IMG/VR virus record: IMGVR_UViG_2639762779_000001
Location: 76,320 to 140,319 of that record
Source: a virus
Taxonomy: Duplodnaviria; Caudoviricetes
Reading direction: 5' to 3' (one strand)
DNA: 64,000 nucleotides
The notes under the pieces are model-generated. The model searched no databases. It had not been told where the DNA came from and saw only the letters and a list, made by a program, of their open reading frames with translations. The position numbers were made by a program, and so were the translations under genes. Of this stretch, positions 44,380 through 57,884 are shown piece by piece; within the stretch, counting starts at the first letter, position 1; every line of letters begins with the position of its first letter.

Positions 44380-44531
44380 CAGTTGTTCCTTTCCGCATCG
44401 GTTCCCGTATGCGTTCCACATTTCGATGCCGCCATCGGAATGTTCCGGCTCTTCTCGGAAGGATGGTGGATATTACAAAATGGGTGTACATTTGTATACA
44501 TATATGTATATATTCCTTTTGGAGGTTTGCG

Positions 44532-45111: not shown

Positions 45112-45116
45112 CCGGT

Positions 45117-45467
45117 TCACGACGACACTTCGACCAGGATCAGTCCGACAATCGCAAACGCGAGAATCCATACACCGAACAGCACGTACCGTGCGCAGCG
45201 CATGCCCGTCAGATACCGGTCGAACATGCGGTTCCGTTCGTCGAGCATCCGATACCAGTCTTTCTCGCATCGGTCGAAATCGGCGGCGGTCATGCCGATA
45301 CCACCGTAGGATTCCAGATGCTCACGCAGGGACGGCATCGACGGCGCCGGCCACGGTTCAAACCGGAGCGGGCGGAAGCACATCGCATCCCATGCGACAC
45401 GCAATCCACGTCGGAAACCGGCCCTGAAGCCGCTGCCCATGTAGTCCATCAACCTCTCCTGTTCCAT
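45117..45467 (-). CDS. hypothetical protein with C-terminal TM
   Basis: Operon context; hydrophobic C-terminus. Confidence 0.55.
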   Translation of the reverse strand: MEQERLMDYMGSGFRAGFRRGLRVAWDAMCFRPLRFEPWPAPSMPSLREHLESYGGIGMTAADFDRCEKDWYRMLDERNRMFDRYLTGMRCARYVLFGVWILAFAIVGLILVEVSS

Positions 45468-45703
45468 TTCTCGACCGCCGAATACAGGCAGGTGACACGG
45501 GTCTGGAACGATGGGTCGATCGGAACGTACCGGCCCGGCATGTTCCCGCCGCAGTCGCAGCGCACCGTGTACCGTTCCGTCGTATCGTTCACATCATCGT
45601 CGATTCGTGGCGTGCCGGCGCAGAACGGGCATGGTTCCAACGTCTCGTGTTCGACCGTCGCATGCCTGTTGTTGCGGGAATCCCAGATTCCTGTGGTCTC
45701 CAT
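45449..45703 (-). CDS. Lar-family restriction alleviation protein
   Basis: LEPCPFC...VRCDCG...AVEKWNRR. Confidence 0.8.
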   Translation of the reverse strand: METTGIWDSRNNRHATVEHETLEPCPFCAGTPRIDDDVNDTTERYTVRCDCGGNMPGRYVPIDPSFQTRVTCLYSAVEKWNRRG

Positions 45704-47040
45704 CAGAGCCTGCCCTTCCGCCTGTTTCGTTCCAGACAGTCGCCCATCGCCCGTCCGACCTCCTCATCGGTGATGCCGAACGCCGTGATCAGGTTGCCTA
45801 CCGTCTGCAGCACGTCGGCCAGTTCGTCGAGCATGGCCTGGCGGCGCTGGTCGCGCACATGGCCTATCCAGCCGGCCTTCGCCTTGTCCCAGTCGTCGCC
45901 GAGCTCGCCGCCCACGTTAACCCCGTAGCAGGCGAGACAGTTCGCATGGTCGTCGAACTGGTCGCCGATATGGCTCGGATCGGTCGGATCGCAGGCCTTC
46001 AAATACTGTTTGCACGCCTCCACGAGTTCGGCCGACTCTTCGAGGTTCTTGACGGCCAGCCACTTGTCCCGTTCCAGACGGCCGAACGATCGGACATCCG
46101 GGAGATGCACGGTGCGGCTCCCCTCATGGATCGGAGTGGAATCGCCGGATTCCGGCTTCCATGGGACCTCTTCGACGGTTTGGAGCGAATACCGGGTGTA
46201 CGGGCCATGCGCGGACGGTTCCCCGGAATCGTCGTCAAGCTCTTCGGCCATCCAGTCATGGTTGTTCCAAATCCTCACCCGACGTTCCCCGGACACCGCC
46301 AACAGGTTCCCGTCCTTGTCCATCCACACGCCCGGCAGGTTCGGGATCGGCGCGGAACCGACCGGAATGCCGAGTCGGAGCCGTGCGCATGAGCCCAAAC
46401 CCCCGTCCAGGAAACCTCCGCCCGAATCGAACAGGAACAGGCGCTTCCCGCCGCCGTCCCCGAAGACGACGCCGGACCCGGCATGTCCGAACCTCCACAG
46501 GCCGTTCTCCTCCGGCAGACTCTTCCGAATCTCCTTGATACGAGCCAGCAGAGACGATGCGGGTTCGGACATATCATCATCCCAACCATGATCGGCGATC
46601 CACGGCTTGCACCAGTCAAAACGAACGGCTTCATCATCCTTCGGATTGAAGTCGCAGCGTGCCCACGGGCCCCATTCGTGGAGCATCCTCACGGTGATGC
46701 CGAAACACGGCGCGCATTCCCATTCGCGGCCTGGTTCCTTCAGCCGGAAGATGTGCCCGTCGATCCCGTCGCCGCCCGTGATGAGCCAGAGCGTGCCGTT
46801 CGCGTCGCACCAGCATCCCGCCGTGTCGGGCATGGCGGCGAGCCCGGCCCCGATCAGTTTCGGCCCTTTCCATTCGGCTTGACGGAACGGCGCGGCCCGT
46901 TCCACCCGCTCCCCGGACAGGACCATGCCGGTATCCGGGTCGCGCATCCTGAGCTCGCCGGATTCCATGCAGGCCACGACCGTTTTCTCGTTCGCATCCC
47001 GCCATAGTCCGGGCTTATCCGGTTTCCCATGGTCGCTCAA
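45703..47040 (-). CDS. repeat protein fused to MazG-like NTP pyrophosphohydrolase
   Basis: GGAGA RBS before TTG 47040; four PxxxGxWxDxxG-type repeats; KNLEESAEL...DELADVLQ. Confidence 0.75.
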   Translation of the reverse strand: MSDHGKPDKPGLWRDANEKTVVACMESGELRMRDPDTGMVLSGERVERAAPFRQAEWKGPKLIGAGLAAMPDTAGCWCDANGTLWLITGGDGIDGHIFRLKEPGREWECAPCFGITVRMLHEWGPWARCDFNPKDDEAVRFDWCKPWIADHGWDDDMSEPASSLLARIKEIRKSLPEENGLWRFGHAGSGVVFGDGGGKRLFLFDSGGGFLDGGLGSCARLRLGIPVGSAPIPNLPGVWMDKDGNLLAVSGERRVRIWNNHDWMAEELDDDSGEPSAHGPYTRYSLQTVEEVPWKPESGDSTPIHEGSRTVHLPDVRSFGRLERDKWLAVKNLEESAELVEACKQYLKACDPTDPSHIGDQFDDHANCLACYGVNVGGELGDDWDKAKAGWIGHVRDQRRQAMLDELADVLQTVGNLITAFGITDEEVGRAMGDCLERNRRKGRL

Positions 47041-47158
47041 TCGTCTTCTCCTATCTGTTTGTCCAGCCATGTTTCGGCCTCGTCCAAAGTCGCGCATTGT
47101 TTTCGCACGCTGTTCTCCACACCGGATGGCTGCCTGATGAGCAGTATCACCCCATTGC

Positions 47159-48019
47159 TTAATCCCATTTCGGTTTGATGGTGGCGACGTGGCGGGCGAC
47201 TAGGCCGGTCGGATCGATGATGGTCACGTCCAGGGCGGTCCTGTCGCCTTTCAGGTATTTCCCGTAACGGACGGCGAACCGTTCGAGTATCCTCGGCTGG
47301 TCCGCGAACATGGTCAAATCCACGCAGAACCGTCTGTGCGGCAGCCGGTCGAGCGTATGCGCGGTTATCGCCCACAGTTCGCGTCCCGCCCGTTCCAATG
47401 CGCCGGTCGCGTTGGCGACGACGGGGCGCAACGGGAGGAACCCCGGATACCGTTCCGCCCGGTCGAGCAGGCCGAGCCGGTCGGGGAACCGCATGCTGGT
47501 CAGGTTCACGCCATAATCGACGGGCCTGTCGAGCCGGCCATGGTAGGCGAACAGGAATTGGGTGCCGAGCAGGCGGATGCCGGTCGCATCCAGGAGAACA
47601 TCCCCCGTCAGGGCGTTCAGCGTGTTCGCGAGACGTTTCGCCGTGTTCTCGCCCGGCGTCGGCTCCGACGGGATGATGAGGATCCGGTCCGGGGTCTCCG
47701 CGACGAAGCAGGCGCACCCTTCGGCCATCTCCATGGGTTTCAGGCCGTCGGCGATCGGGTTCGGCTCCCACTTGTCGCCATCCGTGAGATGACGTGCGCA
47801 GGATTCCAGGTCCGCGATGATCGCGTCCGCGTTCATGTACGTGGCGTACAGACGTCGCCAATGAGCGCGAACCTGTTCCATAATCTTCGGATCGTCGCAG
47901 GACAGATGGCCTATCCCGTTCTCCGCGTCGTTGATGGCGGCGGCGAGCCCGCGGCGGGCGACCGCCAGCATCATCCTCGCCTCGGTGTTCTGTTCGAGCG
48001 TGAAATCATGACCGTTCAA
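47159..48019 (-). CDS. hypothetical protein
   Basis: GGAGG RBS before TTG 48019. Confidence 0.7.
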   Translation of the reverse strand: MNGHDFTLEQNTEARMMLAVARRGLAAAINDAENGIGHLSCDDPKIMEQVRAHWRRLYATYMNADAIIADLESCARHLTDGDKWEPNPIADGLKPMEMAEGCACFVAETPDRILIIPSEPTPGENTAKRLANTLNALTGDVLLDATGIRLLGTQFLFAYHGRLDRPVDYGVNLTSMRFPDRLGLLDRAERYPGFLPLRPVVANATGALERAGRELWAITAHTLDRLPHRRFCVDLTMFADQPRILERFAVRYGKYLKGDRTALDVTIIDPTGLVARHVATIKPKWD

Positions 48020-48326
48020 TCGGGATCTCCTCCTTGATGCATTCGGGGCATTGCCCGTCCTTCCATCCGGCCGGGTCGGCCATGATGTTCGTGCATGTCG
48101 CGCATTCGGGCAGCCGGTGCGCCGGACAGTATTGCATGTCGCGTTCCAATTCGGGATGCTCGTCCCTGTACAGGATCTGCCAGCCGGCATCCATGCGCGC
48201 ATCGTTCAGCAGATCGTCCTCGTCCGCATACCATTCGCCGTCGTCGAACCGTTGCTCGCAGTTGGGGTCGTCGCATTCGATCATGTACCAGTCGCGTCCA
48301 TCGAATGTTTCTTCGATTCTTGCCAT
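48006..48326 (-). CDS. Cys-rich zinc-finger protein
   Basis: CDDPNC, YCPAH, CATC, CPEC. Confidence 0.7.
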   Translation of the reverse strand: MARIEETFDGRDWYMIECDDPNCEQRFDDGEWYADEDDLLNDARMDAGWQILYRDEHPELERDMQYCPAHRLPECATCTNIMADPAGWKDGQCPECIKEEIPIERS

Positions 48327-48577
48327 CAGCCCTCCCTCTCTTTTTCGTATTCGAGTTCGTTGACGCAGCAGGCGCACAGTCCATCCACCAGATTGGGGCA
48401 CATGTCGCCGCAGCGGCGGCAACGGCCGGCCTCCGGCACGCGGTCCATCCGGTCGAACAGGTAGTCGCCCATCGCGTTGATGTCGATGCGGCCGGCCTTG
48501 CCGTGCAGGTATCCGGCCAGCATCCTCTTCAGTTCGCGGCGGGCCACCTGCCTCGATTCGTTCCCCTTTGAAGCCAT
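48326..48577 (-). CDS. small protein with C-terminal CxxC..CxxC, paralog of 48579..48755
   Basis: RRELK...YL.G...D...MGD.LFD. Confidence 0.7.
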   Translation of the reverse strand: MASKGNESRQVARRELKRMLAGYLHGKAGRIDINAMGDYLFDRMDRVPEAGRCRRCGDMCPNLVDGLCACCVNELEYEKEREG

Positions 48578-48578
48578 G

Positions 48579-48755
48579 TCACTCCCTTTCCAACCGGATT
48601 TCGTATTCCGGGGTTTCGACCATCCCGTCGTCGAACAGGAAGTCGCCCATATGCTCCACGTCGACGGGCAGCCCGCTCCCGTAGAGGTATTCGGCGATCG
48701 CGTTCTTCAGTTCGCGCCGGGGCACCATGCGGGCGTCGTCATCGTGTTTCGCCAT
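48579..48755 (-). CDS. small hypothetical protein
   Basis: GGAGG RBS; homologous to downstream ORF. Confidence 0.65.
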   Translation of the reverse strand: MAKHDDDARMVPRRELKNAIAEYLYGSGLPVDVEHMGDFLFDDGMVETPEYEIRLERE

Positions 48756-49344
48756 GATTCCCTCCTCCATCACGTGTTTCATCGATCCCGGCGAGCAGCT
48801 TCGAGAACATGCCCGATATGGCGCGCGCCCGGTCGCCGTTATCCCCGGTCGCGAAACGGTGGAGCTCCCACTGGTCGGCGGCCGCCGTCAGCAGTCGGAG
48901 CGCCTCCGGCACGTGATCCATGGACGGCTGCGGCACGGCCGGTTCCGCCGTTTCGGGCAGATAGCGCCATGACTGCGGCGCGTGCTTCAAACCGACTTCC
49001 GACAGGGTCTTCGGCCTGTCGTATCTGACGGGCGACTCCAATCGGTATGCGTACAGGCGGTCGGCGCCCTGCGCGTATTCGTCGAATTCCTCTTTCGACA
49101 AGCCGGATGCGGGACCGTATTTCCTCCAGATGACATCCGGCATCGCGGCGTGCATGCCCTTCACCCGAACCTCTCCGACGATCAGGCCGGTGCCGGTCCG
49201 GTAGACGAGCATCCGGCCGATCATCCGGCTCATGCGGCTGCGCCGGATTTCGATGGTTTTCTCCCCGTCCAGGATGAGATCCGCCCACTTGGGTTTCAGC
49301 GCGAACACGGCCGCCGAGACCCGGATTCCGTCATTCATCGTCAA
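48739..49344 (-). CDS. ASCH-domain protein
   Basis: LKPKWADLILDGEKTIEIRR (GxKxxExR), APQSWRY. Confidence 0.85.
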   Translation of the reverse strand: MTMNDGIRVSAAVFALKPKWADLILDGEKTIEIRRSRMSRMIGRMLVYRTGTGLIVGEVRVKGMHAAMPDVIWRKYGPASGLSKEEFDEYAQGADRLYAYRLESPVRYDRPKTLSEVGLKHAPQSWRYLPETAEPAVPQPSMDHVPEALRLLTAAADQWELHRFATGDNGDRARAISGMFSKLLAGIDETRDGGGNHGETR

Positions 49345-49603
49345 TCTCCTCCCATTCCATGCCGTATGCGGCCCTGACCGCGACGGTCGCGATGCCTTCC
49401 CGCTGGCTTTTGGTCAGCCACGGGTATCGTTCCAATGCGCGGCGGACGCGCCTAATCGCCTGCTTGTCCGCGCATCGCATGGCCCCGTCCATCCAGCCCA
49501 GCTGGTAGGCGTTCACGAGCCCGCAGGCGCGCAGCGTGGCGTCCGGCGTGGTTTCGACCCACCGGGCCGCGGCATCGGCGCTCTCATCCAACGGGTTCGT
49601 CAT
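49331..49603 (-). CDS. hypothetical protein
   Basis: GGAGG RBS; overlaps neighbours. Confidence 0.6.
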   Translation of the reverse strand: MTNPLDESADAAARWVETTPDATLRACGLVNAYQLGWMDGAMRCADKQAIRRVRRALERYPWLTKSQREGIATVAVRAAYGMEWEEIDDE

Positions 49604-49826
49604 CCCGGCCTCCCTCGTTCGCGATTGTCTGGAGAATGCCCGCCAGACAGCCGATTTCGCCGGGACTCAACCGGATTCGGCGGATCGTGCCGCCGTCGTC
49701 GGTGGACAGCACCCACGTGCGGACGCCGTGTCGGCCGTCGCCCGGCAGCCAGGTGAGGCTCGTATGCCCGCATGAGGCGCCCGTGATCATGCCAGCGCGG
49801 CGTTCGACTTCGATTTCCGGCTTCAT
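49584..49826 (-). CDS. hypothetical protein
   Basis: GGAGG RBS; ATGA overlap. Confidence 0.6.
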   Translation of the reverse strand: MKPEIEVERRAGMITGASCGHTSLTWLPGDGRHGVRTWVLSTDDGGTIRRIRLSPGEIGCLAGILQTIANEGGRDDEPVG

Positions 49827-50377
49827 CGCGCACCTCCCAGGATCAGGGGCACGGCGGCCCAACGGTGGAACACGCGGCCCGGCGCGGCCCTGCAGTACGC
49901 GTGGTCCGGATGCAACACGGTCACGCCCTCCGCGGCCATCGCCTCCAACGTGTCCGGCCTGTCGTCGATCAGCACGTCCGGCGTGAGCAGCGTCTTGTCG
50001 CCGTTGTAGTAGCCGTCGAAACGGAAGCCGTTGCGGTGCAGCCAGCGTTGGCTTTCGCCGCGCCAGTCATCCGTGCGGCTGGTCGCCATGATCACCCGCC
50101 AGCCCGCATCGTGCAGATGGTTCAAGGCTTCGGCGGCTCCCGTATACGGTTCTTCTCTGGAGTACAAGCCGTCGGCGACGGCGCGCGTATGCCACCATCG
50201 GAACGATTTCGCATCCCCGCTGAACGGCCATCCGTCGGTCAGCGTGAAATCGTAGGCCGTCGGTTCCGGGCACGGGCATTCGTCCTCGCCATGTCCGCAT
50301 TCGCGGATGTAGTCGCGCAGCCCGTTCGTGTAGTCGGCGACGGTGTTGTCGATGTCCACCAGAATGGTCTTGCTCAA
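49823..50377 (-). CDS. HAD phosphatase (5'(3')-nucleotidase / Pnkp 3'-phosphatase-like)
   Basis: ILVDIDNTV (DxDxT), ATSR, K, LIDDRP. Confidence 0.88.
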   Translation of the reverse strand: MSKTILVDIDNTVADYTNGLRDYIRECGHGEDECPCPEPTAYDFTLTDGWPFSGDAKSFRWWHTRAVADGLYSREEPYTGAAEALNHLHDAGWRVIMATSRTDDWRGESQRWLHRNGFRFDGYYNGDKTLLTPDVLIDDRPDTLEAMAAEGVTVLHPDHAYCRAAPGRVFHRWAAVPLILGGAR

Positions 50378-50473
50378 AACAATTCTCTCTTTCCGAGTTT
50401 TCCGCCGGTTCGTCGAGCCGGGCATCGACGGCTTCGCTCTTGTGCCCGCAGGAGCCGCAGGGTATGTCATGTC

Positions 50474-51511
50474 CTACAGTCCGTTCTTCGTCAGGTACTT
50501 GTTGTTGATGATCTTGAAGCACCGATTGGCTCCCAGTTCGTTCGCCAATCCTTCGGACAACTGCTGGTCTTCGTGCAGATGCCAGACGATGCCTTCGTCC
50601 AGACGGTCTTTGTTGACGTTGCCACGCAACCCGTCCACTTTGGCGATCATGTCGTCCACGCTCCCCGTCAACGCCCACTCGTTTTCGTCGAGTTCGGGAA
50701 CGGCGAGATTCGGCATGCCGGTCGGCCATTGGTCGCGGTCGATCTTGTGATGGTCTTTCCAGACGGCGAAGACGAACGGGCGTTGGGCCGGCAGTTTCAA
50801 CCGGTTGGATTGGATGCCGGGGCCGCATAGCTCGAACTGGACGGCCATGCCGGGCCATAGCATCTTGTCCAACTGGAACCTTTTGGCGAGCCGCATGTTC
50901 GTGGACATGGAGTCGAGTTCCCAGTTGCGTGAATACACGTGGACTTGTCCTCGTTCGTCCATGCTGAGCGTGGTGCTGGTGCCATCGACCTTCACGGTCG
51001 GCACGGCTTTCAACGTCTTGATTTCGTCCCAGTGGTCGGTGAGCGTCTGCAGACGTGGCGCGTCCGACTTGGAGCAGGGCGCGTCGAATCGGCCGATCTG
51101 AGCACCGCCCATCGGCAGGGGCTCTTCGTATTTGAGTACGTTCGCCTTATCGGTGATGTCCGTGCCGACTGCCGGCGTATACCGGAATCCGAGTTCATCC
51201 AAACGCATGATGAGGCCCTGCGAGTAGACTCCGCGCAGTTTCATGGTGCGGAGCACATGGCCGGTGATTTCCATGGAACCTACGATCATGGTCTTCTGGC
51301 CATGCTCCTGGAACGCCTTATAACGCGGGTCATAGGCGGGCAGGAGACTGTCGGTCTCGAAATAGGCGACCCTATCGCCCGGTTTCAATCCCATGTCCTT
51401 GCCGACCACCACACGCCAGCCCAATACGCGGGCGACCTCGATGCGATCGGCCCCTTCGATGGGCTCGATGTTGGTAATCTCCTGTACGCTGACGAGTTTC
51501 CTATTGCTCAT
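50474..51511 (-). CDS. ATP-dependent RNA ligase (DRB0094/Rnl2-like) with N-terminal OB domain
   Basis: RKLVSVQ.I..I.PIEGAD.IE, KLRGVYSQGL, KVDGTS, SRN, ELCGPGIQ.N, EGIV, FKIIN. Confidence 0.93.
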   Translation of the reverse strand: MSNRKLVSVQEITNIEPIEGADRIEVARVLGWRVVVGKDMGLKPGDRVAYFETDSLLPAYDPRYKAFQEHGQKTMIVGSMEITGHVLRTMKLRGVYSQGLIMRLDELGFRYTPAVGTDITDKANVLKYEEPLPMGGAQIGRFDAPCSKSDAPRLQTLTDHWDEIKTLKAVPTVKVDGTSTTLSMDERGQVHVYSRNWELDSMSTNMRLAKRFQLDKMLWPGMAVQFELCGPGIQSNRLKLPAQRPFVFAVWKDHHKIDRDQWPTGMPNLAVPELDENEWALTGSVDDMIAKVDGLRGNVNKDRLDEGIVWHLHEDQQLSEGLANELGANRCFKIINNKYLTKNGL

Positions 51512-51717
51512 GCCGCCACTCCTATGCTGTATTGTTTCGGTGAGATGGTGATGACCATTTCGTTTTCGTCGTCGTAGATGCTTGCCTCATACCCGTTCTC
51601 GTTGGCGATGTCTCGTGCCATGGCGAGCATTTGCTTGAAGCTGTAGTCTGCTGGTACTGGTGTCGAATACTCGTATGCGCCAGCCACGCCGTCTTTTGTG
51701 CTTCTGATTTCATACAT
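51508..51717 (-). CDS. small hypothetical protein
   Basis: ATGA overlap with ligase. Confidence 0.7.
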   Translation of the reverse strand: MYEIRSTKDGVAGAYEYSTPVPADYSFKQMLAMARDIANENGYEASIYDDENEMVITISPKQYSIGVAA

Positions 51718-51734
51718 TTCGTGTTCTCTTTTTC

Positions 51735-52112
51735 TCAGTCGTCGACCGCGTCGAATTTCGTCCAGTCGCTCATGAAGTCGGCGACGCTCCAGCCACGGAC
51801 GAGGAGAACCACCTCATTCGGGAAGTCTTCTTCGATCGCGTATCCGCTGGGTTTGAACGTGGTGATGCCATACAGGGAGCAGGCGTAACGGTCGGAAATC
51901 ACTTCAGTGGGGTCTGCCAGATCCTCGCAGGAATGGATTTCCCCGCCGTCGAAAATCTTGTCTGCTGCTTCCTTGGGAAGTTCCTCGTATTTGCATCCGT
52001 CAGAAGTGTTGCGGCGCATGGACACGTCGAGTTGTCCTTTTCGCCACTTGTCCCAGATTTCATGGCTCAGGTGGGCGCGGAACATGTTCTTGAAGTCTTC
52101 GATGTTCATCAT
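51735..52112 (-). CDS. acidic hypothetical protein
   Basis: Operon context. Confidence 0.7.
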   Translation of the reverse strand: MMNIEDFKNMFRAHLSHEIWDKWRKGQLDVSMRRNTSDGCKYEELPKEAADKIFDGGEIHSCEDLADPTEVISDRYACSLYGITTFKPSGYAIEEDFPNEVVLLVRGWSVADFMSDWTKFDAVDD

Positions 52113-52116
52113 GATT

Positions 52117-52497
52117 TCATGCCTCGATGCTTTCACGGTCGATTCCAAGTGCCTGGATTGCGTTGTCGAGAGAGTCGGGAATGATGCCACAACAATCGCT
52201 TCCGAGCATGTCGTGGGCTTCTTCCGTCCAACGGGTCATGAGCTGGTCGAACTGGAGCGCATCCAGCTTGCCGGGGTCGATGCCGTTGTCTTCGAGGCTT
52301 CCCTTGTCGAAGTAGGTGACGCCGTACTGTCCGAACGCATCGCCGTAACCGTAGAAGTCCGGTTCGCGGAGGCTTAATCCCTTGGGCTTGTAGTTTGACA
52401 GGAATTTCAGGAAGGCCTGTGCGCCTTGCTTTTCCTCTTCGGTGAGAGTGCTGTGCTTGAGCGCGTCATATAGGTAGAAAGCGTATGCGTTGTTCAT
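52117..52497 (-). CDS. acidic hypothetical protein
   Basis: First gene after conserved module. Confidence 0.75.
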   Translation of the reverse strand: MNNAYAFYLYDALKHSTLTEEEKQGAQAFLKFLSNYKPKGLSLREPDFYGYGDAFGQYGVTYFDKGSLEDNGIDPGKLDALQFDQLMTRWTEEAHDMLGSDCCGIIPDSLDNAIQALGIDRESIEA

Positions 52498-52502
52498 GGT
52501 GT

Positions 52503-52565
52503 TTTCCTCTTTCAATTATTTTATGTGGACATATTCAGTATAACGAGTAAAAAAGAAAAAGTCAA
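52503..52565 (-). promoter_or_regulatory. conserved promoter/operator/RBS module, copy 6 (RNA ligase operon)
   Basis: TTGACT-N17-TATACTGAATATGTCCACATAAAATAATTGAAAGAGGAAA. Confidence 0.85.
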
Positions 52566-52602
52566 AGACACCACAAAAACCAAGGAGAGACACCAAAAGA
52601 AG

Positions 52603-52675
52603 TGGAGCAGACGGGAATCGAACCCGCGACCTTTTCGTTGCGAACGAAACGCTCTACCAACTGAGCCACAACCCC
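52603..52675 (-). tRNA. tRNA-Ala(CGC)
   Basis: Cloverleaf, G3:U70, loop TTCGCAA. Confidence 0.9.
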
Positions 52676-52840
52676 AATCGAGCTGCCGGTCGGATTTAAA
52701 CAGAGGCTTCTTTCCCTGTTTGTTGCCGTGTCGGCGCGGCTTCCCCTCATCTACCGAAACTGCGGGGGGTTACATTATTCGGTGCAGTCATAGGAATCTC
52801 CTTAATCTCGTGGAAACCTGGAATAGGTTTCCCTCCTGCG

Positions 52841-52913
52841 AGCCGTCGACCGGATTCGGACCGGTGACCTGCGCATTACGAGGGCGCTGCTCTGCCAGCT
52901 GAGCTACGACGGC
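52841..52913 (-). tRNA. tRNA-Thr(CGT)
   Basis: Loop CTCGTAA; T-loop TCCGAAT. Confidence 0.88.
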
Positions 52914-53055
52914 GAAAAACCGTTCCGGCATGAGGAACGGCGGATGGGCCATGCGAGCAAGGGGTTTCTAATCCTACGACCGGTTCATGCCGCCGACCGT
53001 AGACTGCTCCCATTCGGGAACCCAGTTTTTTCGCATGTGGCCACTGGGCCCATCG

Positions 53056-53121
53056 TGCTTCGACGGGATTCGAACCCGCATTACTCCAAAAACAGAGCAT
53101 CCTACCGTTAAATGACGAAGC
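53056..53121 (-). pseudogene. degenerate 66-nt tRNA-like gene, anticodon unassignable
   Basis: Acceptor and TTCGAAT arms present; anticodon arm GCTC-TGTTTTTG-GAGT. Confidence 0.6.
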
Positions 53122-53382
53122 GGTGTTGCGGATACGATGCTGGGGAAGCGGTTCTGTCAGGCTACTGAGGTGAAGGCCTGCGCCGTGACCATCGTTCCAT
53201 CCCGCCCCCAATATGGCAGCGGGCGGGTGGTGGCGTTGATATCGCATTCGCAAGAAATAGAGCGGATACGGGCGCTACGTTAATCATCGGCCTCAATTAT
53301 GAAAAGTCCTCCCAACGTATCGTTCCCAAAACAGGTAAGCGTTCAATACCTGTATGGGTGGCGTTGACGCCCGTGTTTCCGC

Positions 53383-53459
53383 TGGTGCTTTCGCCGGGAT
53401 TCGAACCCGGACTGAATGCGTCCTTAGCGCATCGCCTCTACCGGTTGGGCCACGAAAGC
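53383..53459 (-). tRNA. tRNA-Leu(AAG), short variable loop, encoded CCA
   Basis: ATGCG-CTAAGGA-CGCAT; A73 then CCA. Confidence 0.85.
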
Positions 53460-53871
53460 ATGCGCAGGCAATCCGCAGGGATATGCCCGCGCAGTCCACA
53501 ATCGATCCGGCCACTCGTGTCGAATCCTTGCACTCATGCTTGCGGTGGACGCGCATACTGCAGCGTGAGGCATGACGAGGATCACGGGCTGTGACGCCCA
53601 TGCTCCGCCGAGACCGTTCCCACATCCTGTGGGTCGGCTGACGAGAGACGCGGTCACCCACGTCTCAGGGAACCTTTTCCGCACTGGGCGGATAGGCTGA
53701 TCGGATTCGCGCCGACCCCTCCGACGGGGGCTGTTCGCATCATCCTGGAATGATGGGCGCCGGCGATAATCCGCGTGTCCGTCGAACAAAACGGAGGCGC
53801 GGATATCGGACACGATCCACATGGTCATGACTGCCCCGCCGGGAACTCCCAACGGGCATGGACTCGTATCG

Positions 53872-53943
53872 AGCGGTGTACGGGAATCGAACCCGCATCA
53901 TCAGTTTGGAAGACTGAGACACTGACCGTTGTGCTAACACCGC
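53872..53943 (-). tRNA. tRNA-Gly(TCC)
   Basis: GCG start, loop CTTCCAA, U73. Confidence 0.9.
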
Positions 53944-53999
53944 GAAAAAAAGGAATCCACGGACACGCTTCACCTTGATTTTTTCTAGTGGATTCCTTA

Positions 54000-54073
54000 G
54001 CGGACATCTCGGGCCTCGAACCCGGACCTCCATCCACAGGGGATGGCGTGCTGTCCATTTACACCAATGCCCC
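54000..54073 (-). pseudogene. atypical tRNA, Gln(CTG)-like
   Basis: TGGTGTAA D arm; CCATC-CCCTGTG-GATGG with C33; imperfect acceptor and T stems. Confidence 0.55.
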
Positions 54074-54201
54074 GCATGGTCGCGCGTCATGATCACATGC
54101 CCATGCGTTCGCCTGACCGAGGATTCGTTACAACGGAGGCCGGTCGGGACTCCAATGGTTTCGATTTTTTGAGAGTGCCAAACCATCAAATGCCGCACTC
54201 G

Positions 54202-54274
54202 TGCCCCCGGCCGGAGTCGGACCGGCTGCGCCCGGTTTAGGAAACCGGCGCTCTATCCACTGAGCTACAAGGGC
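54202..54274 (-). tRNA. tRNA-Arg(CCT)
   Basis: Loop TTCCTAA; T-loop TCCGACT. Confidence 0.88.
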
Positions 54275-54383
54275 GATGGCATCGTTTTCGCGGCCTGGGG
54301 TGATGCCGAAACCCTGTATGTCCGGTACAACACATCGTTCGAGTGTAGAGGAAGAAATCGAAACGAAGAATGCTGCCGCTGAG

Positions 54384-54457
54384 AGGCGGTTGTGGGGGTC
54401 GAACCCACCGTTCACGGTTTTGCAGACCGTTGCCAACAGCCGGTTGGCGTAACCGCC
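54384..54457 (-). tRNA. tRNA-Cys(GCA), atypical D arm
   Basis: Loop CTGCAAA, U73. Confidence 0.8.
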
Positions 54458-54464
54458 GATTATG

Positions 54465-54535
54465 TTCCTCCTCCTGGTCTTGAACCAGGACTATGGGTTC
54501 CAAAGACCCGTGTGCTGCCGTTACACCAAGGAGGA
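54465..54535 (-). tRNA. tRNA-Gln(TTG)
   Basis: Loop CTTTGGA; TGGTGTAA D arm. Confidence 0.87.
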
Positions 54536-54654
54536 ATGTGCGCGAACGCATCGGACACGTATGCCCGACTGCGTTCCGCCATGCCGATCCAACCCTTTTT
54601 GCTGACTGGATTCCAGGCCCTGTCCCGTGGCCTAACACATTGTTGATCGGCCAG

Positions 54655-54741
54655 CGGATGGTGCGAGAGTCGAACTCGCCAGGGACTTCCGCCCCCAACA
54701 GTCTTAGCAGGACTGCGCCTTTGCCGCACGGCCCACCATCC
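54655..54741 (-). tRNA. tRNA-Ser(GCT)
   Basis: Loop CTGCTAA, long variable arm, G73. Confidence 0.85.
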
Positions 54742-54813
54742 ATGCCGGTGTTTGCGATTCAGGGCACACCGGCTAAGCCTCGATAGAGCCGCCAAGAACT
54801 GCCAGCGGTTTCG

Positions 54814-54898
54814 CGGAGGATGAGGGAGTTGAACCCCCGGAACCTTGCGGTTCGTCTGTTTTCAAGACAGGTACGTTCGACCGCTCCGCCAATCCTCC
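54814..54898 (-). tRNA. tRNA-Ser(TGA)
   Basis: Loop CTTGAAA, long variable arm, G73. Confidence 0.87.
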
Positions 54899-54902
54899 AA
54901 CG

Positions 54903-54977
54903 TGCTCCCGGTGGGATTCGAACCCACGACCAGCCGGGTAGAAACCGGCGGCTCTGATTCCACTGAGCTACGGGAAC
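54903..54977 (-). tRNA. tRNA-Arg(TCT)
   Basis: GCCGG-TTTCTAC-CCGGC. Confidence 0.88.
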
Positions 54978-55122
54978 AAACTCGGAAGAGCATCTGGTTC
55001 AAGAAAAGACATCGAAGTTTTTCTTACGCTCGTCCGAGTTTTCGCCTTGTTTCGCGCGTGGTCTGCGATACCACCGTATCTGTGTGTTGGTGCGCTTACG
55101 TGTGACCTTTTGCCTCACGTCG

Positions 55123-55195
55123 TGTTTCCGGCAGGATTCGAACCCGCACTGATTGATGTTTAGGACCATGCCTCTACCATTTGGGCTACGGAAAC
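55123..55195 (-). tRNA. tRNA-Leu(TAA), short variable loop, weak anticodon stem
   Basis: TGGT-CCTAAAC-ATCA with C33; Leu-type D arm. Confidence 0.65.
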
Positions 55196-55364
55196 TTGGC
55201 CAACTGCCCCCCACCACGGTTGACCGGCGTGGCTGATACCAACCCAGGCTGCTGGATAGAGAAGAGAAAAACCAGAGCAAGGCTTTCGGGGAAAATTAAT
55301 ACTGTTCTCCCCCCCTCGTGTGACAGGAATCGGTTTGCACATTGAAGAAGGAGAGAACAGCAAG

Positions 55365-55440
55365 TGCCCCCAGCGGGGTTCGAACCCGCAACCTCTGGTT
55401 CCGTAGACCAACGCTCTGAATCCGATTGAGCTACGAGGGC
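55365..55440 (-). tRNA. tRNA-Arg(ACG)
   Basis: Loop CTACGGA. Confidence 0.9.
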
Positions 55441-55768
55441 GATGGCACATTTCGATCCCTTAACGACGTACGCCTGTGCCGGGCTGTGTTCGGCATGGTC
55501 CTCATTGATGTCGCTCCGGAGACCATCGCTGCAAAAAGAGCGTCCTCCCCATCCGTCCTGAATGACAGATGGAGGGAATCGGGAGACTGGATTGGGTTTT
55601 TACCAGCAACGTCGAGGACAAACGAGATCATGTCAGATCCCCTCTGGACGTGCCGCCGGTTCGGTCGCAAACCACCCTGCCGGGCCCGGCTCATCTTATC
55701 GTCTCGTTTCCGATGCGATTGTTCGATCACTCCCTGAAAGCAGTCCATTGATCGGATGGATTGCTTCG

Positions 55769-55840
55769 TGCCTCCGTCTGGAATCGAACCAGCATCCACG
55801 GTGCTTCAGACCGTTGCTCTACCATTTAAGCTACAGAGGC
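55769..55840 (-). tRNA. tRNA-Phe(GAA)
   Basis: ACGGT-CTGAAGC-ACCGT. Confidence 0.88.
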
Positions 55841-56004
55841 GCCGTACGACGGACTGTTATGGAATCTGGGTTATAGGCCCTTCCCCGGTCCGTCGCACTG
55901 TGTGTTTTCCTTCCCCTGTTTCGCGCGCGGCCGGAAGAAGAAGCTGCCGCAGCCTATCTGATAATAGATTGATGCGCTTATGCATGGCGATGTACCAAGC
56001 ATCG

Positions 56005-56076
56005 TGCCCCGACGGAATTACGATATCCGGACCCAGTGCTTAAAAGGCACCTGCTCTTCCTCTGAGCTACCGGGGC
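56005..56076 (-). tRNA. tRNA-Lys(TTT), non-canonical T-loop
   Basis: Loop CTTTTAA; T-loop ATCGTAA. Confidence 0.8.
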
Positions 56077-56218
56077 GATGGCATGTTTCCTTATTCCTTG
56101 ACGCTGCGTGCCCATGCCGGGGCTGTTCGTCCATGTTTTCTCCGGAAGCGTCCACATGGAAAGGACGGCTGCGAGTCCCATTGTTGGATCGGATCCATTG
56201 TTCTGGTTTTCCGGATAG

Positions 56219-56290
56219 AGCGGATGACGGGGTTCGAACCCGCGGTTTCCTGCTTGGGAAGCAGGCGTGCTACCACTGCACCACATCCGC
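56219..56290 (-). tRNA. tRNA-Gly(CCC)
   Basis: Loop TTCCCAA, U73. Confidence 0.9.
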
Positions 56291-56370
56291 ATGGCCGTGC
56301 TTTTTTCGGATACGTCGCACGGCGGTGACGTATAGTCCGCCAGCCGAAAGAGGGATGGCTGGTCTCCGAG

Positions 56371-56444
56371 TCGGATTGACAGGATTCGAACCTGCGACCC
56401 CATGCTCCCAAAGCACGTGCGCTACCAAACTGCGCCACAATCCG
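56371..56444 (-). tRNA. tRNA-Pro(TGG)
   Basis: CGG start, loop TTTGGGA. Confidence 0.92.
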
Positions 56445-56447
56445 ATA

Positions 56448-56699
56448 TTTTTGACAGGACTCCGTGGCTTACCAGCTACGTACGTGCCCTATTAAACGCG
56501 ATTTCCTCAGATTCTGGCACCGTCTTAAGCCAGTACCACGATGCTTTCATCTTGATTCTTTCGCGTGTTTAGACTGTCTCCACCGGTTTTCCTAACCTCC
56601 TGCGAAACCTCCCCTTCCAAGCGTGCGACCTAGGATTTGCACGCTCTTCCAGTTTTTCTTCACAGTCCTCGACTCTCCGGTTGTAAGACCTGTCAAAAA
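56448..56699 (-). ncRNA. candidate ~250-nt structured ncRNA of unknown family
   Basis: 11-bp closing stem TTTTTGACAGG/CCTGTCAAAAA with nested helices. Confidence 0.55.
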
Positions 56700-56701
56700 C
56701 G

Positions 56702-56761
56702 TGGCTCCGGGTGGATTCGAACCACCAACCATGCATGCTCCGCCGTTTGAGCTACGAAGCC
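56702..56761 (-). ncRNA. 60-nt tRNA-like RNA lacking the anticodon arm
   Basis: GGCTTCG/CGGAGCC acceptor, GCTC/GAGC D stem, GGTGG-TTCGAAT-CCACC T arm. Confidence 0.7.
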
Positions 56762-56949
56762 GGCCGGAACGCGTCGTCTCATGGCGCGTATCATTCCGGC
56801 TTTTACCGTTCGCTGTCAGACTAATGAGACTGGCCTGACAGCGGATAAAATCCGTTTGTTGTTTAGATACTGTGTACAAACGAAAACCACAGCACGGCCT
56901 TGAAGGCGCCGCTACCTGTTAATCCGCCTGTTTGCAACCAGGCGGATAG

Positions 56950-57031
56950 TGGTGGCGGGAGGACTCGAACCTCCGGTGTTTCCTTGTCGCAGATTTACAG
57001 TCTGCTGCCGTCGCCGCTGGGCCACACCACC
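56950..57031 (-). tRNA. tRNA-Tyr(GTA)
   Basis: GCAGA-CTGTAAA-TCTGC, long variable region. Confidence 0.9.
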
Positions 57032-57136
57032 GGTGCATCGCTTCTGCCCGTCACGGTGCGATGCATACCGTGCCCGATTCATCTGTACCCGCAGACCGTG
57101 AGTCTGCACAAGCTCATGGGAGATGGATCAGGGTCG

Positions 57137-57530
57137 TGGAGCTGCCGAGAATCGAACTCGGGTCTAGCCTGCTGTCAGCCTTTGCTTGCTGTCACGTGCG
57201 TATCCGACGCGGCTGATCCCCACTTGCGTGGGGAAGATCATCCGTGGACAGGGTGCGTTCGGCGAACCTGCACGGCTTGTAGACGATGTTCATATGCTGG
57301 CCGGGCGAATCCATCGTCCGACTGTCTGACCAGTCCGATTCAAAGTTTTCCGATTCTGGCCTGTTAATCGGCAATGGGGTCAGAATCGGGTTTCACGCTG
57401 CGAGGGTGAAACGGGAAGAAGAAACGGTGTTGGCGTTCGTTCTTGTGGCAAGGTTGATGACGGTTGTCCTTGCCGGCCTCCGGCACGTAGCAAATGGTTT
57501 CCTGCAGGCTATCGAAAGCCTGTCAACCCC
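57137..57530 (-). ncRNA. ssrA: tmRNA, tag ANTVSSSRFTLAA*
   Basis: 5' GGGGTTGA..TTCGA; 3' GACCCGAGTTCGATTCTCGGCAGCTCCA; tag ORF 57434-57393 ending LAA. Confidence 0.93.
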
Positions 57531-57821
57531 AGTGATATGGGTTGAACGGCGTGAACTTCAGTCGTTCAACCCATGTCTTTACTGCTGCCACCTTGCAAGG
57601 GTGGCGATTCCAAGGTCTTGTCCTCACGCCCATGCGGGCGTGAGTTGCCTTGGTAAGAAATGTTTTTTGGTGTCTCTCTTCGGTTTTCAATCGTCCTGCA
57701 TCACGTGCGTGGTGGTAGGGGTTGGCTTCCTACGCAGGATGCTTCACGCCGGCGTGGATTGCTCTTGGCCGGTTTGAAAGGAGAGAGTGTTTTGACTTCC
57801 TGTTTGGGCAGGAGGTGTTGG

Positions 57822-57884
57822 TTTCCTCTTTCGATTCATTTATGTGGACACATTCAGTATAATATGTTTCTTGAGCTCTGGCAA
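57822..57884 (-). promoter_or_regulatory. conserved promoter/operator module, copy 7 (tmRNA/tRNA array)
   Basis: TTGCCA-N17-TATACTGAATGTGTCCACATAAATGAATCGAAAGAGGAAA. Confidence 0.82.

What the first reader, a model, noticed from the sequence alone, without database searches (positions are those of the whole stretch)
48739..57884. Plasmid-borne translation supply and repair island: tmRNA/tRNA array followed by RNA ligase, HAD phosphatase and ASCH genes
Seen: tmRNA and about 20 tRNA or tRNA-like genes are followed on the same strand by an operon with an ATP-dependent RNA ligase, an adjacent DxDxT phosphatase, an ASCH protein and a MazG-like protein. Both units start at the same promoter/operator module. 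Known: T4 Pnkp/Rnl1 heal and seal tRNAs cut by anticodon nucleases, and phage tRNAs can replace cleaved host tRNAs. As I recall, a tRNA cluster is already reported on pMP7017; the link to RNA repair and shared control is my inference. Hypothesis: a co-induced system that protects translation from recipient tRNases and toxins during plasmid establishment. No 5' kinase is visible in the window.
Basis: partly seen in the sequence, partly recalled or inferred. Interest (0 to 1): 0.8.

Follow-up and report, generated by a model that had tools for sequence, protein, structure and literature searches.

The report
Plasmid tRNA array beside RNA ligase
A published tRNA and tmRNA gene cluster on a Bifidobacterium megaplasmid lies next to an RNA-sealing enzyme, a pairing that recurs in other plasmids and phages, but the proposed complete RNA repair kit is not there.

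Summary
The window is 100% identical to B. breve megaplasmid pMP7017. The tmRNA, 20 tRNA(-like) genes and the shared promoter/operator are real. All three are already published: Dineen 2024 reports the 34-bp motif at 19 promoters driving 56 genes, so shared control is plasmid-wide.

The ligase is an intact Rnl5-family nick-sealing RNA ligase. The DxDxT protein is a capped NT5C-type mononucleotidase by Pfam, fold and the fusions of its relatives, not an end-healing phosphatase. ASCH is variable cargo. The MazG-like call is sub-threshold and lies outside the stated coordinates. The whole plasmid has no RtcB and no kinase match above cut-off.

The ligase–array link does hold up. 19 of 59 representative Rnl5 loci sit in or beside tRNA arrays, with at least 10 gains or losses on the ligase tree. 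Those loci are enriched for RtcB, SAK-HAD, Macro and cREC. However, the ligase's closest relatives lack an adjacent array, and one sister plasmid keeps the array without the ligase.

Verdict: a new plasmid member of the known "tRNA supply plus RNA repair" theme, at most seal-only. Interest is moderate.

The parts
57816..57884 (-). Promoter of the tmRNA unit: -35 TTGCCA (57884-57879), 17-nt spacer, -10 TATACT (57861-57856), then copy A of the plasmid-wide operator motif with a vestigial Shine-Dalgarno and no ORF. It overlaps the divergent repB promoter region.
   Evidence: RNA contigs stop at 57821 and 57797 just downstream. The motif is published.
57134..57530 (-). tmRNA gene. The tag reads ANTVSSSRFTLAA and the acceptor stem keeps the G3:U70 pair.
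   Evidence: Rfam RF00023 78.1 bits, model positions 1-374. Alignment to sister plasmids. Not called by ARAGORN. Published as highly transcribed.
52602..57031 (-). Array of 18 canonical tRNA genes plus 2 tRNA-like genes. 53055-53122 has a shortened anticodon loop. 56702-56761 lacks the anticodon arm.
   Evidence: Published as 20 tRNAs in three transcription units.
55576..55750 (-). manA-like structured RNA inside the array
   Evidence: RF01745 41.5 bits, below the gathering score of 55.2, E 2.8e-8. Reported by Dineen 2024 at the same place.
52497..52565 (-). Promoter of the ligase operon: -35 TTGACT (52565-52560), 17-nt spacer, -10 TATACT (52542-52537), copy B of the operator motif, then a Shine-Dalgarno GAAAGAGGAA and the ATG at 52497.
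   Evidence: RNA contigs end at 52455-52503.
51508..52497 (-). Three small acidic ORFs of unknown function (126, 125 and 69 aa). The last overlaps the ligase start.
   Evidence: No Pfam, PHROG or NCBIfam hit. Atlas uninformative. Conserved only within the pMP7017 family.
50474..51511 (-). [quoted passage not shown]
   Evidence: PF21189 75 bits, PF09414 33.2 bits. NgrRnl 5cot E 4.9e-32. TIGR02306 112 bits. Motif residues invariant in 6 of 6 aligned homologues.
49823..50377 (-). NT5C-type capped HAD phosphatase (5'(3')-deoxyribonucleotidase-like), misnamed IspD in RefSeq.
   Evidence: PF06941 30 bits against 24.8. PDB sequence match 2jao 5.4e-4. AlphaFold2 pLDDT 96.4. Foldseek top hits are mdN/cdN at TM about 0.7. 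Relatives are fused to dNMP kinase and dGTP diphosphohydrolase domains.
49331..49826 (-). Two small ORFs (80 and 90 aa) of unknown function
   Evidence: RefSeq CDS. No family hits.
48739..49338 (-). ASCH-domain protein with a plasmid-specific C-terminal extension. Variable cargo.
   Evidence: PF04266 32.6 bits. phrog_3136 1.8e-28. PRK12279 L22-fusion domain 3.7e-14. Absent here in L007, 143 aa in L009.
45117..48755 (-). Rest of the co-directional cluster, outside the finding. It holds five ORFs of unknown function. One is the 455-aa ORF with a weak MazG/PRA-PH-like C-terminus (45706-46125). A Lar-family restriction-alleviation gene (45449-45703) follows.
   Evidence: One RNA contig spans 44378-52472.

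Best explanation
The locus is the published tmRNA plus 20-tRNA array of conjugative megaplasmid pMP7017. It is followed by a separately promoted operon of about 8 kb. Both belong to the plasmid's general operator-controlled regulon.

Only one protein of the operon is credibly tied to the array, the Rnl5-type RNA ligase. My reading is a 'supply, rescue and seal' cargo:
- the tRNAs top up or replace the cell's pool;
- the tmRNA frees stalled ribosomes;
- the ligase reseals 3'-OH/5'-phosphate nicks in base-paired parts of tRNA-like RNAs, the ends left by metal-dependent nucleases, with no end-healing step.

The neighbouring HAD is a (deoxy)nucleoside-monophosphate phosphatase acting on the nucleotide pool. 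ASCH and the MazG-like protein are exchangeable cargo.

Shown here: the identities of the parts, the shared promoter and the recurrence of the ligase-array linkage. Inferred: the ligase's substrate and any role during plasmid establishment.
For: Identity and prior publication.

Ligase family and intact motifs.

Recurrent linkage. The ligase is embedded in the tRNA/tmRNA array of Curtobacterium megaplasmid pCPAA3, with the nearest tRNA 120 nt away. The same holds for phages Mimi (29 nt) and Cece (499 nt). It also holds in Agromyces, Leifsonia, Myxococcales and Sericytochromatia contigs.

Of 59 representative ligases (under 90% identical), 19 are array-adjacent. The tree needs 11 changes of that label, 10 of them forced by supported branches.

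Partner genes among the 58 representative loci other than the window (Pfam basis):
- 18 array-adjacent loci: RtcB in 6, SAK-HAD in 4, Macro in 3, cREC in 2.
- 40 non-adjacent loci: 1, 1, 0 and 0.

Within the pMP7017 family, 13 of 15 ligase loci have the array within 3.1 kb.

Independent literature. 'RNA ligase, DRB0094 family' is 140-fold enriched in gut phages that carry tRNA-associated theta ribozymes (passage read, PMC10879173). Jumbo phages combine tRNA provision with RNA repair (passages read, PMC7824862).

RNA contigs of one study begin just downstream of both promoter copies and cover 44378-52472 in one piece.
Against: Rnl5 enzymes seal nicks in duplexes and are feeble on single-stranded RNA. 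Loop breaks are the province of Rnl1 and Rnl4. The only physiological phenotype known for the family is DNA-repair-related (passages read).

The ligase's nearest relatives have no adjacent array. In B. callitrichidarum the array is 46 kb away on the same contig. The group at about 62% identity has 0 tRNAs within 10 kb in 31 of 31 loci. None is found at all in 2 of 3 near-complete contigs of that group.

Other exceptions:
- One Glaciihabitans plasmid carries the ligase and no tRNA.
- In an Arthrobacter plasmid the array is about 155 kb away.
- One of 6 PLSDB family plasmids keeps the array without the ligase or HAD.

In B. callitrichidarum the ligase's neighbours are DNA-metabolism genes: ThyA, a PD-(D/E)XK nuclease and a metallophosphoesterase.

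I ran no matched background control for the tRNA-proximity count.

Two results hint that the HAD could be PNK-like. PHROG 415, labelled 'polynucleotide kinase', matches it at 5.4e-17. Residues 75-152 match phage 'polynucleotide kinase/phosphatase' genes.
Confidence: 0.45

Rival explanations
1. Neighbours by descent only. The array serves codon-usage adaptation, as published. The ligase operon is unrelated establishment, DNA-metabolism or anti-defence cargo. In it the Rnl5 ligase seals RNA-ended nicks in DNA, for example primer or patch junctions during plasmid replication or complementary-strand synthesis. NT5C and the MazG-like protein groom the nucleotide pool.
For: The published analysis ties the tRNAs to plasmid codon usage. 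A DraRnl knockout is radiation-sensitive and delays genome reassembly. The locus abuts the RepB replicon. The operon also carries a Lar anti-restriction gene and acidic small ORFs. Relatives of the HAD are fused to dNMP kinase and dGTP diphosphohydrolase domains. The closest ligase relatives sit among ThyA, nuclease and phosphoesterase genes with no adjacent tRNAs.
Against: It does not explain why the same ligase family is found inside tRNA arrays in at least 10 separate places on its tree. Nor does it explain why RtcB, SAK-HAD, Macro and cREC gather at exactly those loci.
Confidence: 0.3
2. One reading: a dedicated, co-induced heal-and-seal tRNA repair island. The HAD removes 3'-phosphates, the ligase seals, and ASCH and MazG assist, analogous to T4 Pnkp/Rnl1.
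For: The DxDxT motif is intact. There are sub-threshold HAD_PNKP (16.6 bits) and PHROG 'polynucleotide kinase' matches. A HAD of a different family (SAK-HAD) does accompany array-embedded Rnl5 ligases elsewhere. Ligase-HAD adjacency holds in 15 of 15 family loci, and an NT5C HAD lies within 3.5 kb in 4 of 31 loci of the 62% group.
Against: The fold and family are those of capped mononucleotidases, and no polynucleotide phosphatase appears among the Foldseek rows listed. The whole plasmid has no kinase match above cut-off and no RtcB. The ligase is not Rnl1-like. ASCH is variable and MazG is sub-threshold. The operator is shared by 19 promoters.
Confidence: 0.1
3. The ligase takes part in the maturation or processing of the element's own tRNA-like transcripts rather than in damage repair, for example by joining or circularising processing products. 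The gut-phage theta-ribozyme study proposed a tRNA-maturation role for this ligase family.
For: The enrichment reported in PMC10879173. Two aberrant tRNA-like genes sit in the array, one strictly conserved. A conserved 23-nt complementarity joins the tmRNA leader to the array trailer.
Against: No ribozyme or split-tRNA signature was found in the array at Rfam E up to 1. Ribozyme and RNase products do not have the 3'-OH/5'-phosphate ends this ligase needs (established chemistry, recalled).
Confidence: 0.07

Closest known systems
pMP7017 tRNA array, tmRNA and 34-bp promoter motif (Dineen et al. 2024, PMC10832533; abstract, sections 15 and 21 and passages read)
   Same: The same DNA. The paper reports 20 tRNAs in three transcription units, a 397-nt tmRNA, the manA motif and a motif overlapping the -10 box at 19 promoters.
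   Different: 'ligase', 'ASCH' and 'MazG' do not occur in the paper's main text. It explains the tRNAs by codon usage, not by repair or defence. Its supplements, which list the regulon genes, could not be opened.
tRNA provisioning plus RNA-repair gene sets of jumbo phages (Iyer et al. 2021, PMC7824862; passages read)
   Same: tRNAs combined with an ATP-dependent RNA ligase on a large mobile element. Related loci found here carry RtcB, SAK-HAD, Macro, cREC and a Ro-like protein.
   Different: This is a conjugative plasmid and it has the ligase only. I found no kinase, 2H, cREC, SAK-HAD, PKN-HAD or RtcB.
Phage T4 Pnkp + Rnl1 repair of PrrC-cut tRNA-Lys (recalled; cited in PMC4408790)
   Same: A mobile element carries an RNA ligase and a DxDxT phosphatase gene side by side.
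   Different: The ligase is Rnl5 (a nick sealer), not Rnl1 (a loop sealer). The HAD is a capped NT5C type, not the Pnkp phosphatase. There is no 5' kinase.
Rnl5 family: D. radiodurans DraRnl and N. gruberi NgrRnl (PMC4408790, PMC5397189; passages read)
   Same: N-terminal OB domain plus nucleotidyltransferase domain, KxDG lysine, E 4.9e-32 to NgrRnl.
   Different: It scores below NCBIfam's equivalog cut-off (112 bits against 151). The genomic setting differs. The family's physiological role is called 'uncharted' in those papers.
DRB0094-family ligase enrichment in theta-ribozyme/tRNA-bearing gut phages (PMC10879173; passage read)
   Same: A statistical association of this ligase family with tRNA clusters on mobile elements.
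   Different: Those are phages with HDV-like ribozymes. None was detected here.
Anabaena megaplasmid trn operon co-regulated with rtcB (PMC8421152; passages read)
   Same: A plasmid-borne long tRNA array linked to an RNA ligase and to translational stress.
   Different: That ligase is RtcB, it is chromosomal, and the link is by regulation rather than adjacency.
5'(3')-deoxyribonucleotidases mdN/cdN (NT5C, PF06941)
   Same: The HAD core with a C1 cap, the DxDxT, T, K and DD motifs, and best fold matches at TM about 0.7.
   Different: Only about 20-24% identity. The substrate is unknown.

Membership tests
Rnl5 RNA ligase family | N-terminal OB-fold module fused to a C-terminal nucleotidyltransferase domain | tested here: met
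   PF21189 residues 6-102 (75 bits) and PF09414 residues 171-313 (33.2 bits). Aligns to NgrRnl over residues 2-281.
Rnl5 RNA ligase family | Motif I lysine (KxDG) and the other nucleotidyltransferase motifs | tested here: met
   K174, D176, G177, R195, N196, E227, E306, G307 and K333 are invariant in 6 of 6 aligned homologues. The residue aligned to K174 is the NgrRnl lysine in 'KlDGsS'.
Rnl5 RNA ligase family | Curated equivalog score (TIGR02306, RNA_lig_DRB0094) | tested here: not met
   112.2 bits against a cut-off of 151.15, full-length match 6-342. It is a divergent member, not an equivalog.
Rnl5 RNA ligase family | Seals 3'-OH RNA / 5'-phosphate nicks in duplexes | not testable with these tools
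   A biochemical assay is needed.
T4-type heal-and-seal tRNA repair (Pnkp + Rnl1) | 5'-OH polynucleotide kinase | tested here: not met
   PF13671 over the whole 190-kb plasmid gave one 16.4-bit match below the cut-off, about 68 kb away. No P-loop in the operon ORFs (read directly from the sequence).
T4-type heal-and-seal tRNA repair (Pnkp + Rnl1) | Pnkp-type (capless) 3'-phosphatase | tested here: not met
   PF25109 scored 16.6 bits against 27.6. The model has a cap of about 65 residues, and its best folds are deoxyribonucleotidases.
T4-type heal-and-seal tRNA repair (Pnkp + Rnl1) | Rnl1-type loop-sealing ligase | tested here: not met
   All 9 PDB sequence matches at E up to 0.01 are NgrRnl (Rnl5).
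NT5C 5'(3')-deoxyribonucleotidase family | Pfam PF06941 above the gathering score | tested here: met
   30 bits against 24.8. Relatives score up to 115 bits.
NT5C 5'(3')-deoxyribonucleotidase family | HAD catalytic motifs (DxDxT, T/S, K, DD) | tested here: met
   D8, D10, R101, K128 and D139 are invariant and T99 nearly so in 73 sequences.
NT5C 5'(3')-deoxyribonucleotidase family | Capped fold like mdN/cdN | tested here: met
   pLDDT 96.4. The top 16 listed Foldseek ranks are deoxyribonucleotidases or a design built on one, TM 0.68-0.75.
NT5C 5'(3')-deoxyribonucleotidase family | Mononucleotide substrate | not testable with these tools
   Indirect evidence only: of 10 longer relatives, 2 are fused to a dNMP kinase domain and 1 to a dGTP diphosphohydrolase domain.
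ASCH domain | Pfam PF04266 above the gathering score | tested here: met
   32.6 bits against 21.2.
MazG / all-alpha NTP pyrophosphohydrolase | Pfam family above the gathering score | tested here: not met
   PRA-PH 19.3 against 21.3, MazG 16.6 against 22, MazG-like 12.4 against 27. No PDB sequence match.
tmRNA | Full-length covariance-model match above the gathering score, with a tag reading frame | tested here: met
   78.1 bits against 47, model positions 1-374. The tag ANTVSSSRFTLAA* is read from the alignment. ARAGORN makes no call.
Mobile-element tRNA + RNA-repair island (jumbo-phage type) | tRNA array plus an RNA ligase on one element | tested here: met
Mobile-element tRNA + RNA-repair island (jumbo-phage type) | End-healing or alternative sealing enzymes (PNK, SAK/PKN-HAD, 2H, cREC, Macro, RtcB) | tested here: not met
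   The window has no RtcB, SAK-HAD or Macro hit with HMMs built from related loci. The whole plasmid has no RtcB. 2H and cREC were not searched for in the window.

The most novel reading that the evidence does not exclude
The long-'uncharted' natural job of Rnl5 ligases on mobile elements is to reseal nicked tRNA-like RNAs. In pMP7017 this forms a healing-free 'seal-only' arm that, together with spare tRNAs and a tmRNA, is switched on from a plasmid-wide operator when the plasmid enters a repressor-free recipient. That would protect translation from metal-dependent tRNases, which leave 3'-OH/5'-phosphate ends. The strictly conserved tRNA-like gene without an anticodon arm would then be a functional RNA of the same system, such as a decoy or cofactor, rather than a relic.
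Probability: 0.2. Interest if true: 0.7.

Novelty: new member of a known kind. Interest (0 to 1): 0.4.

Why it matters
If the ligase really services the tRNA pool, three things follow:
- It gives a testable physiological role to the Rnl5 family, whose function its own biochemists call uncharted.
- It extends the phage theme of 'bring tRNAs and repair RNA' to a conjugative plasmid of a major infant-gut commensal.
- It offers an alternative to the published codon-usage explanation of the pMP7017 tRNAs.

If not, the locus is an already described array next to ordinary accessory cargo.

Tried and rejected
- Conserved small partner ORF upstream of the ligase. The upstream ORFs of 97 loci fall into lineage-specific groups, and jackhmmer from the 69-aa ORF found only its own family. 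Rejected.
- P-loop protein next to the B. callitrichidarum ligase as a hidden kinase. It gave only generic ABC/SMC-type N-terminal matches and is unrelated to the same-sized ORF of the 62% group. Rejected.
- ESM Atlas for the two 125-aa ORFs: scores 0.81-0.86 with unnamed clusters. Uninformative.
- Using HAD loci as a background control for tRNA proximity. The 73-sequence alignment had no searchable stretch. The 12-sequence one returned 16 loci, of which only 3 were outside the family. That is too few, so no matched control exists.
- Leader/trailer complementarity (57665-57687 against 52576-52598) as a processing stem. It is conserved, but the changes are on one side only, with 2-3 mismatches of which some are wobbles. 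Undecided.
- RNA runs. All four laid runs are contigs of one study, so they show neither strand, level nor a single transcript. Parts of runs X3 and X4 without cover carry no meaning.
- Comparison of plasmid and host anticodon loops. Not done; only the tRNA positions of one Bifidobacterium genome were listed.
- The supplements of Dineen 2024 (regulon gene list, tRNA tables) could not be read. They may state whether these two promoters are among the 19 motif sites.

Full report
**What the DNA is.** The 9.1-kb stretch is 100% identical to Bifidobacterium breve JCM 7017 megaplasmid pMP7017, and 91-92% identical to five B. longum megaplasmids. Window coordinates equal 178406 minus record coordinates. 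The assembly that holds the window is filed as a 140-kb virus record.

**Check of the observation: the RNA genes.** ARAGORN finds 18 tRNA genes, all on the minus strand, between 52602 and 57031. Rfam finds the tmRNA at 57134-57530 with 78.1 bits against a gathering score of 47. It also finds two further tRNA-like genes at 53055-53122 and 56702-56761, giving 20 in all. A manA-like RNA lies at 55576-55750, below its gathering score.

**Check of the observation: the protein genes.** On the same strand follow three small ORFs and then:
- an RNA ligase at 50474-51511;
- a DxDxT HAD protein at 49823-50377;
- two more small ORFs;
- an ASCH protein at 48739-49338.

The 'MazG-like' protein is the C-terminal 140 residues of a 455-aa ORF at 45703-47070. 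It lies outside the stated coordinates, and its matches to PRA-PH and MazG are sub-threshold.

**The promoter module.** The two units do begin with the same module. A 47-nt repeat is 87% identical. It contains the two best sigma-70-like promoters of the region, TTGACT-17-TATACT and TTGCCA-17-TATACT, a short palindrome and a Shine-Dalgarno sequence. In the copy before the tmRNA, no ORF follows the Shine-Dalgarno sequence.

**What is already in print.** Dineen et al. 2024 (PMC10832533; abstract, sections 15 and 21 and search passages read) describe the following:
- the 20 tRNAs in three transcription units, 17 of them highly transcribed;
- the 397-nt tmRNA with its tag;
- the manA motif;
- a 34-bp motif overlapping the -10 box that they find at 19 promoters predicted to drive 56 genes.

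I find 5 copies of the motif core in this window alone, against 0 expected. Shared control is therefore real, but it is a property of about a quarter of the plasmid, not a private link between array and ligase.

The same paper's main text never uses the words ligase, ASCH or MazG.

An earlier paper from the same group reports that the repB promoter region, which overlaps motif copy A, is 1.6-fold more active without the plasmid (PMC8313286, passage read). That is weak support for a plasmid-encoded repressor.

**The ligase.** It has the PHA02142 OB domain and the RNA_ligase nucleotidyltransferase domain. It matches Naegleria gruberi RNA ligase at E 4.9e-32 over residues 2-281. It scores 112 bits on NCBIfam's DRB0094 model, below the equivalog cut-off. 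The KxDG lysine and the other motif residues are kept. It is therefore a divergent but intact Rnl5-family enzyme.

According to the family's biochemists, Rnl5 ligases seal 3'-OH/5'-phosphate nicks in duplexes whose 3'-OH strand is RNA. They are feeble on single strands, and their physiological function is 'uncharted'. Breaks in loops are handled by Rnl1 and Rnl4 (PMC4408790, PMC5397189, passages read). It is the only RNA_ligase-domain (PF09414) match on the plasmid.

**The HAD.** Every test but one points to a capped mononucleotidase:
- Pfam NT5C scores above cut-off, while HAD_PNKP is far below.
- The best PDB sequence matches are 5'(3')-deoxyribonucleotidases.
- 604 relatives were found in the representative library, most about 180-200 aa long.
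- All 10 longer relatives scanned are NT5C. Two are fused to a dNMP kinase domain and one to a dATP/dGTP diphosphohydrolase domain.
- The AlphaFold2 model (pLDDT 96.4) has a cap of about 65 residues.
- Its best structural matches are mdN, cdN and a staphylococcal deoxyribonucleotidase-like protein. No polynucleotide phosphatase appears among the rows listed.

The exception is PHROG 415, labelled 'polynucleotide kinase', at 5.4e-17. There is also a partial tblastn match to phage 'polynucleotide kinase/phosphatase' genes over residues 75-152. I read these as similarity of the shared HAD core.

The plasmid has no RtcB and no AAA_33-type kinase match above cut-off. The window has no SAK-HAD or Macro domain. 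A T4-like heal-and-seal set is therefore not present.

**How stable the gene set is within the plasmid family.**
- Of the 6 Bifidobacterium plasmids in PLSDB that match the region, 5 carry the ligase and the HAD. One keeps most of the array next to an ISL3 transposase but has neither.
- In 15 family loci (ligase at least 93% identical), the HAD follows the ligase in 15 of 15. The array lies within 3.1 kb in 13 of 15.
- In one of the two exceptions the array is about 14 kb away.
- ASCH is absent from this position in the B. longum K2-21-4 plasmid. It is a shorter 143-aa protein in strain DFI.7.60.
- In 4 of the 5 ligase-bearing PLSDB plasmids, but not in pMP7017, a FemA/FemB-family gene follows in the same operon.

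The conserved core is therefore three unknown ORFs, the ligase and the HAD.

**The ligase-array link outside the family.** The nearest non-bifidobacterial homologues (35-38% identity) are on large actinophages and actinobacterial megaplasmids.
- In Arthrobacter phage Mimi the ligase lies between tRNA-Asp and tRNA-His.
- In Microbacterium phage Cece it follows about 50 tRNAs. A cREC protein, an RtcB-like ligase, a Ro-like protein and a peptidyl-tRNA hydrolase lie nearby.
- In Curtobacterium megaplasmid pCPAA3 it sits inside a 36-gene tRNA/tmRNA array.

A scan of genome and viral contig collections gave 28 and 80 loci. After removing near-duplicates, 59 representative ligases remain, including the window. 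Nineteen of them are array-adjacent, and the tRNAs there are on the ligase's strand at nearly all of these loci.

On the ligase tree this label needs 11 changes, 10 of them forced by well-supported branches. The shuffled mean is 16.2, and 2 of 500 shuffles were as low. The label is thus partly inherited but has been gained or lost many times.

Profiles built from Pfam-verified hits gave these counts:
- 18 array-adjacent representative loci: RtcB in 6, SAK-HAD in 4, Macro in 3, cREC in 2.
- 40 non-adjacent representative loci: 1, 1, 0 and 0.

Two published observations agree. DRB0094-family ligases are 140-fold enriched in gut phages with tRNA-associated theta ribozymes (PMC10879173). Jumbo phages pair tRNA provision with RNA repair (PMC7824862).

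**Results against the link.**
- The pMP7017 ligase's own clade of four representatives contains three without an adjacent array.
- In B. callitrichidarum the array is 46 kb away on the same contig, and the ligase's neighbours include ThyA, a nuclease and a phosphoesterase.
- The group at about 62% identity has no tRNA within 10 kb in 31 of 31 loci. None is found at all in 2 of 3 near-complete contigs.
- A Glaciihabitans plasmid has the ligase but no tRNA. An Arthrobacter plasmid has its array about 155 kb from the ligase.
- I could not run a matched background control.

As a rough guide only: an array and its margins cover a few percent of a 200-kb element. Yet 4 of 8 array-bearing elements whose whole record or contig I examined have the ligase within 1.1 kb of the array.

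**Expression.** RNA-library contigs from four runs of one study cover the locus. One contig runs unbroken from 44378 to 52472. Contigs end at 52455-52503 and at 57797-57821, a few tens of bases downstream of the two promoter copies. This agrees with the published transcript map. It is not independent of that map, and it cannot show strand, level or a single transcript.

**Conclusion.** The interpretation survives only in reduced form. The array and tmRNA are accompanied by a ligase of a family that repeatedly travels with tRNA arrays and RNA-repair genes, so a role in resealing nicked tRNA-like RNAs is the best single reading (confidence about 0.45).

Three qualifications apply:
- Any such role is seal-only, because the HAD is a nucleotidase.
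- ASCH and the MazG-like protein are exchangeable cargo.
- The common operator is plasmid-wide.

The main rival is that the ligase operon is DNA-metabolism or nucleotide-pool cargo that merely neighbours the array (about 0.3).

Noticed in passing
window 56702-56761 (-): A tRNA-like gene with intact acceptor, D and T arms but no anticodon stem-loop: 13 consensus positions are replaced by none (44.8 bits). The 86-nt stretch around it is 98.7-100% identical without gaps in 8 related plasmid loci, although the region as a whole is about 91-92% identical. It looks selected rather than decayed.
   Followed up: partly
window 53055-53122 (-): A second tRNA-like gene with a shortened anticodon loop and a mismatched first acceptor pair (34.5 bits). 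It varies among relatives.
   Followed up: partly
window 57665-57687 and 52576-52598: A 23-nt inverted repeat, 91% complementary. On the minus-strand RNA it would pair the tmRNA leader with the trailer after the last tRNA. The leader arm is invariant in the 8 related loci that hold it, while the trailer arm differs by 2-3 positions, some wobble-compatible. It could be a processing stem or a protein site.
   Followed up: partly
window 57134-57530 (-): ARAGORN does not call the pMP7017 tmRNA, although it calls the B. longum plasmid copies. The pMP7017 copy has an 8-nt insertion, a C-to-U change in the acceptor stem (still pairing) and a tag ending LAA instead of LVA.
   Followed up: yes
L007 4134-5420 and L009 3706-4977 (B. 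longum sister plasmids): A FemA/FemB-family (aminoacyl-tRNA-dependent) peptidoglycan bridge gene follows the HAD or ASCH in the same operon in 4 B. longum megaplasmids. pMP7017 lacks it. This would be a second tRNA-using function next to the array.
   Followed up: partly
window 50378-50473: pMP7017 has a 96-nt gap between the ligase and the HAD. Sister plasmids carry a 77-aa 'DivIVA domain' ORF there, so this is probably a deletion.
   Followed up: no
window 49823-50377: RefSeq names the HAD '2-C-methyl-D-erythritol 4-phosphate cytidylyltransferase'. No result here supports that name.
   Followed up: yes
window 48739-49338: The ASCH domain matches the 'unknown domain' of NCBIfam PRK12279, a ribosomal protein L22 fusion (3.7e-14). 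This hints that the ASCH subfamily is linked to translation.
   Followed up: no
window 4681, 30458, 31128: Three further copies of the promoter/operator core lie elsewhere in the window.
   Followed up: no
L051-L080, L087, L094 (IMG/VR contigs of 100-217 kb): A second family of large elements carries a ligase about 62% identical. It has no nearby tRNAs, and an ATP-grasp (R2K) protein and a DUF3310 protein lie downstream. Its nature is unknown.
   Followed up: partly
window 45449-45703 and 44809-45111: A Lar-family restriction-alleviation gene ends the same co-directional cluster. A YafQ-type toxin gene lies just beyond it on the other strand.
   Followed up: no
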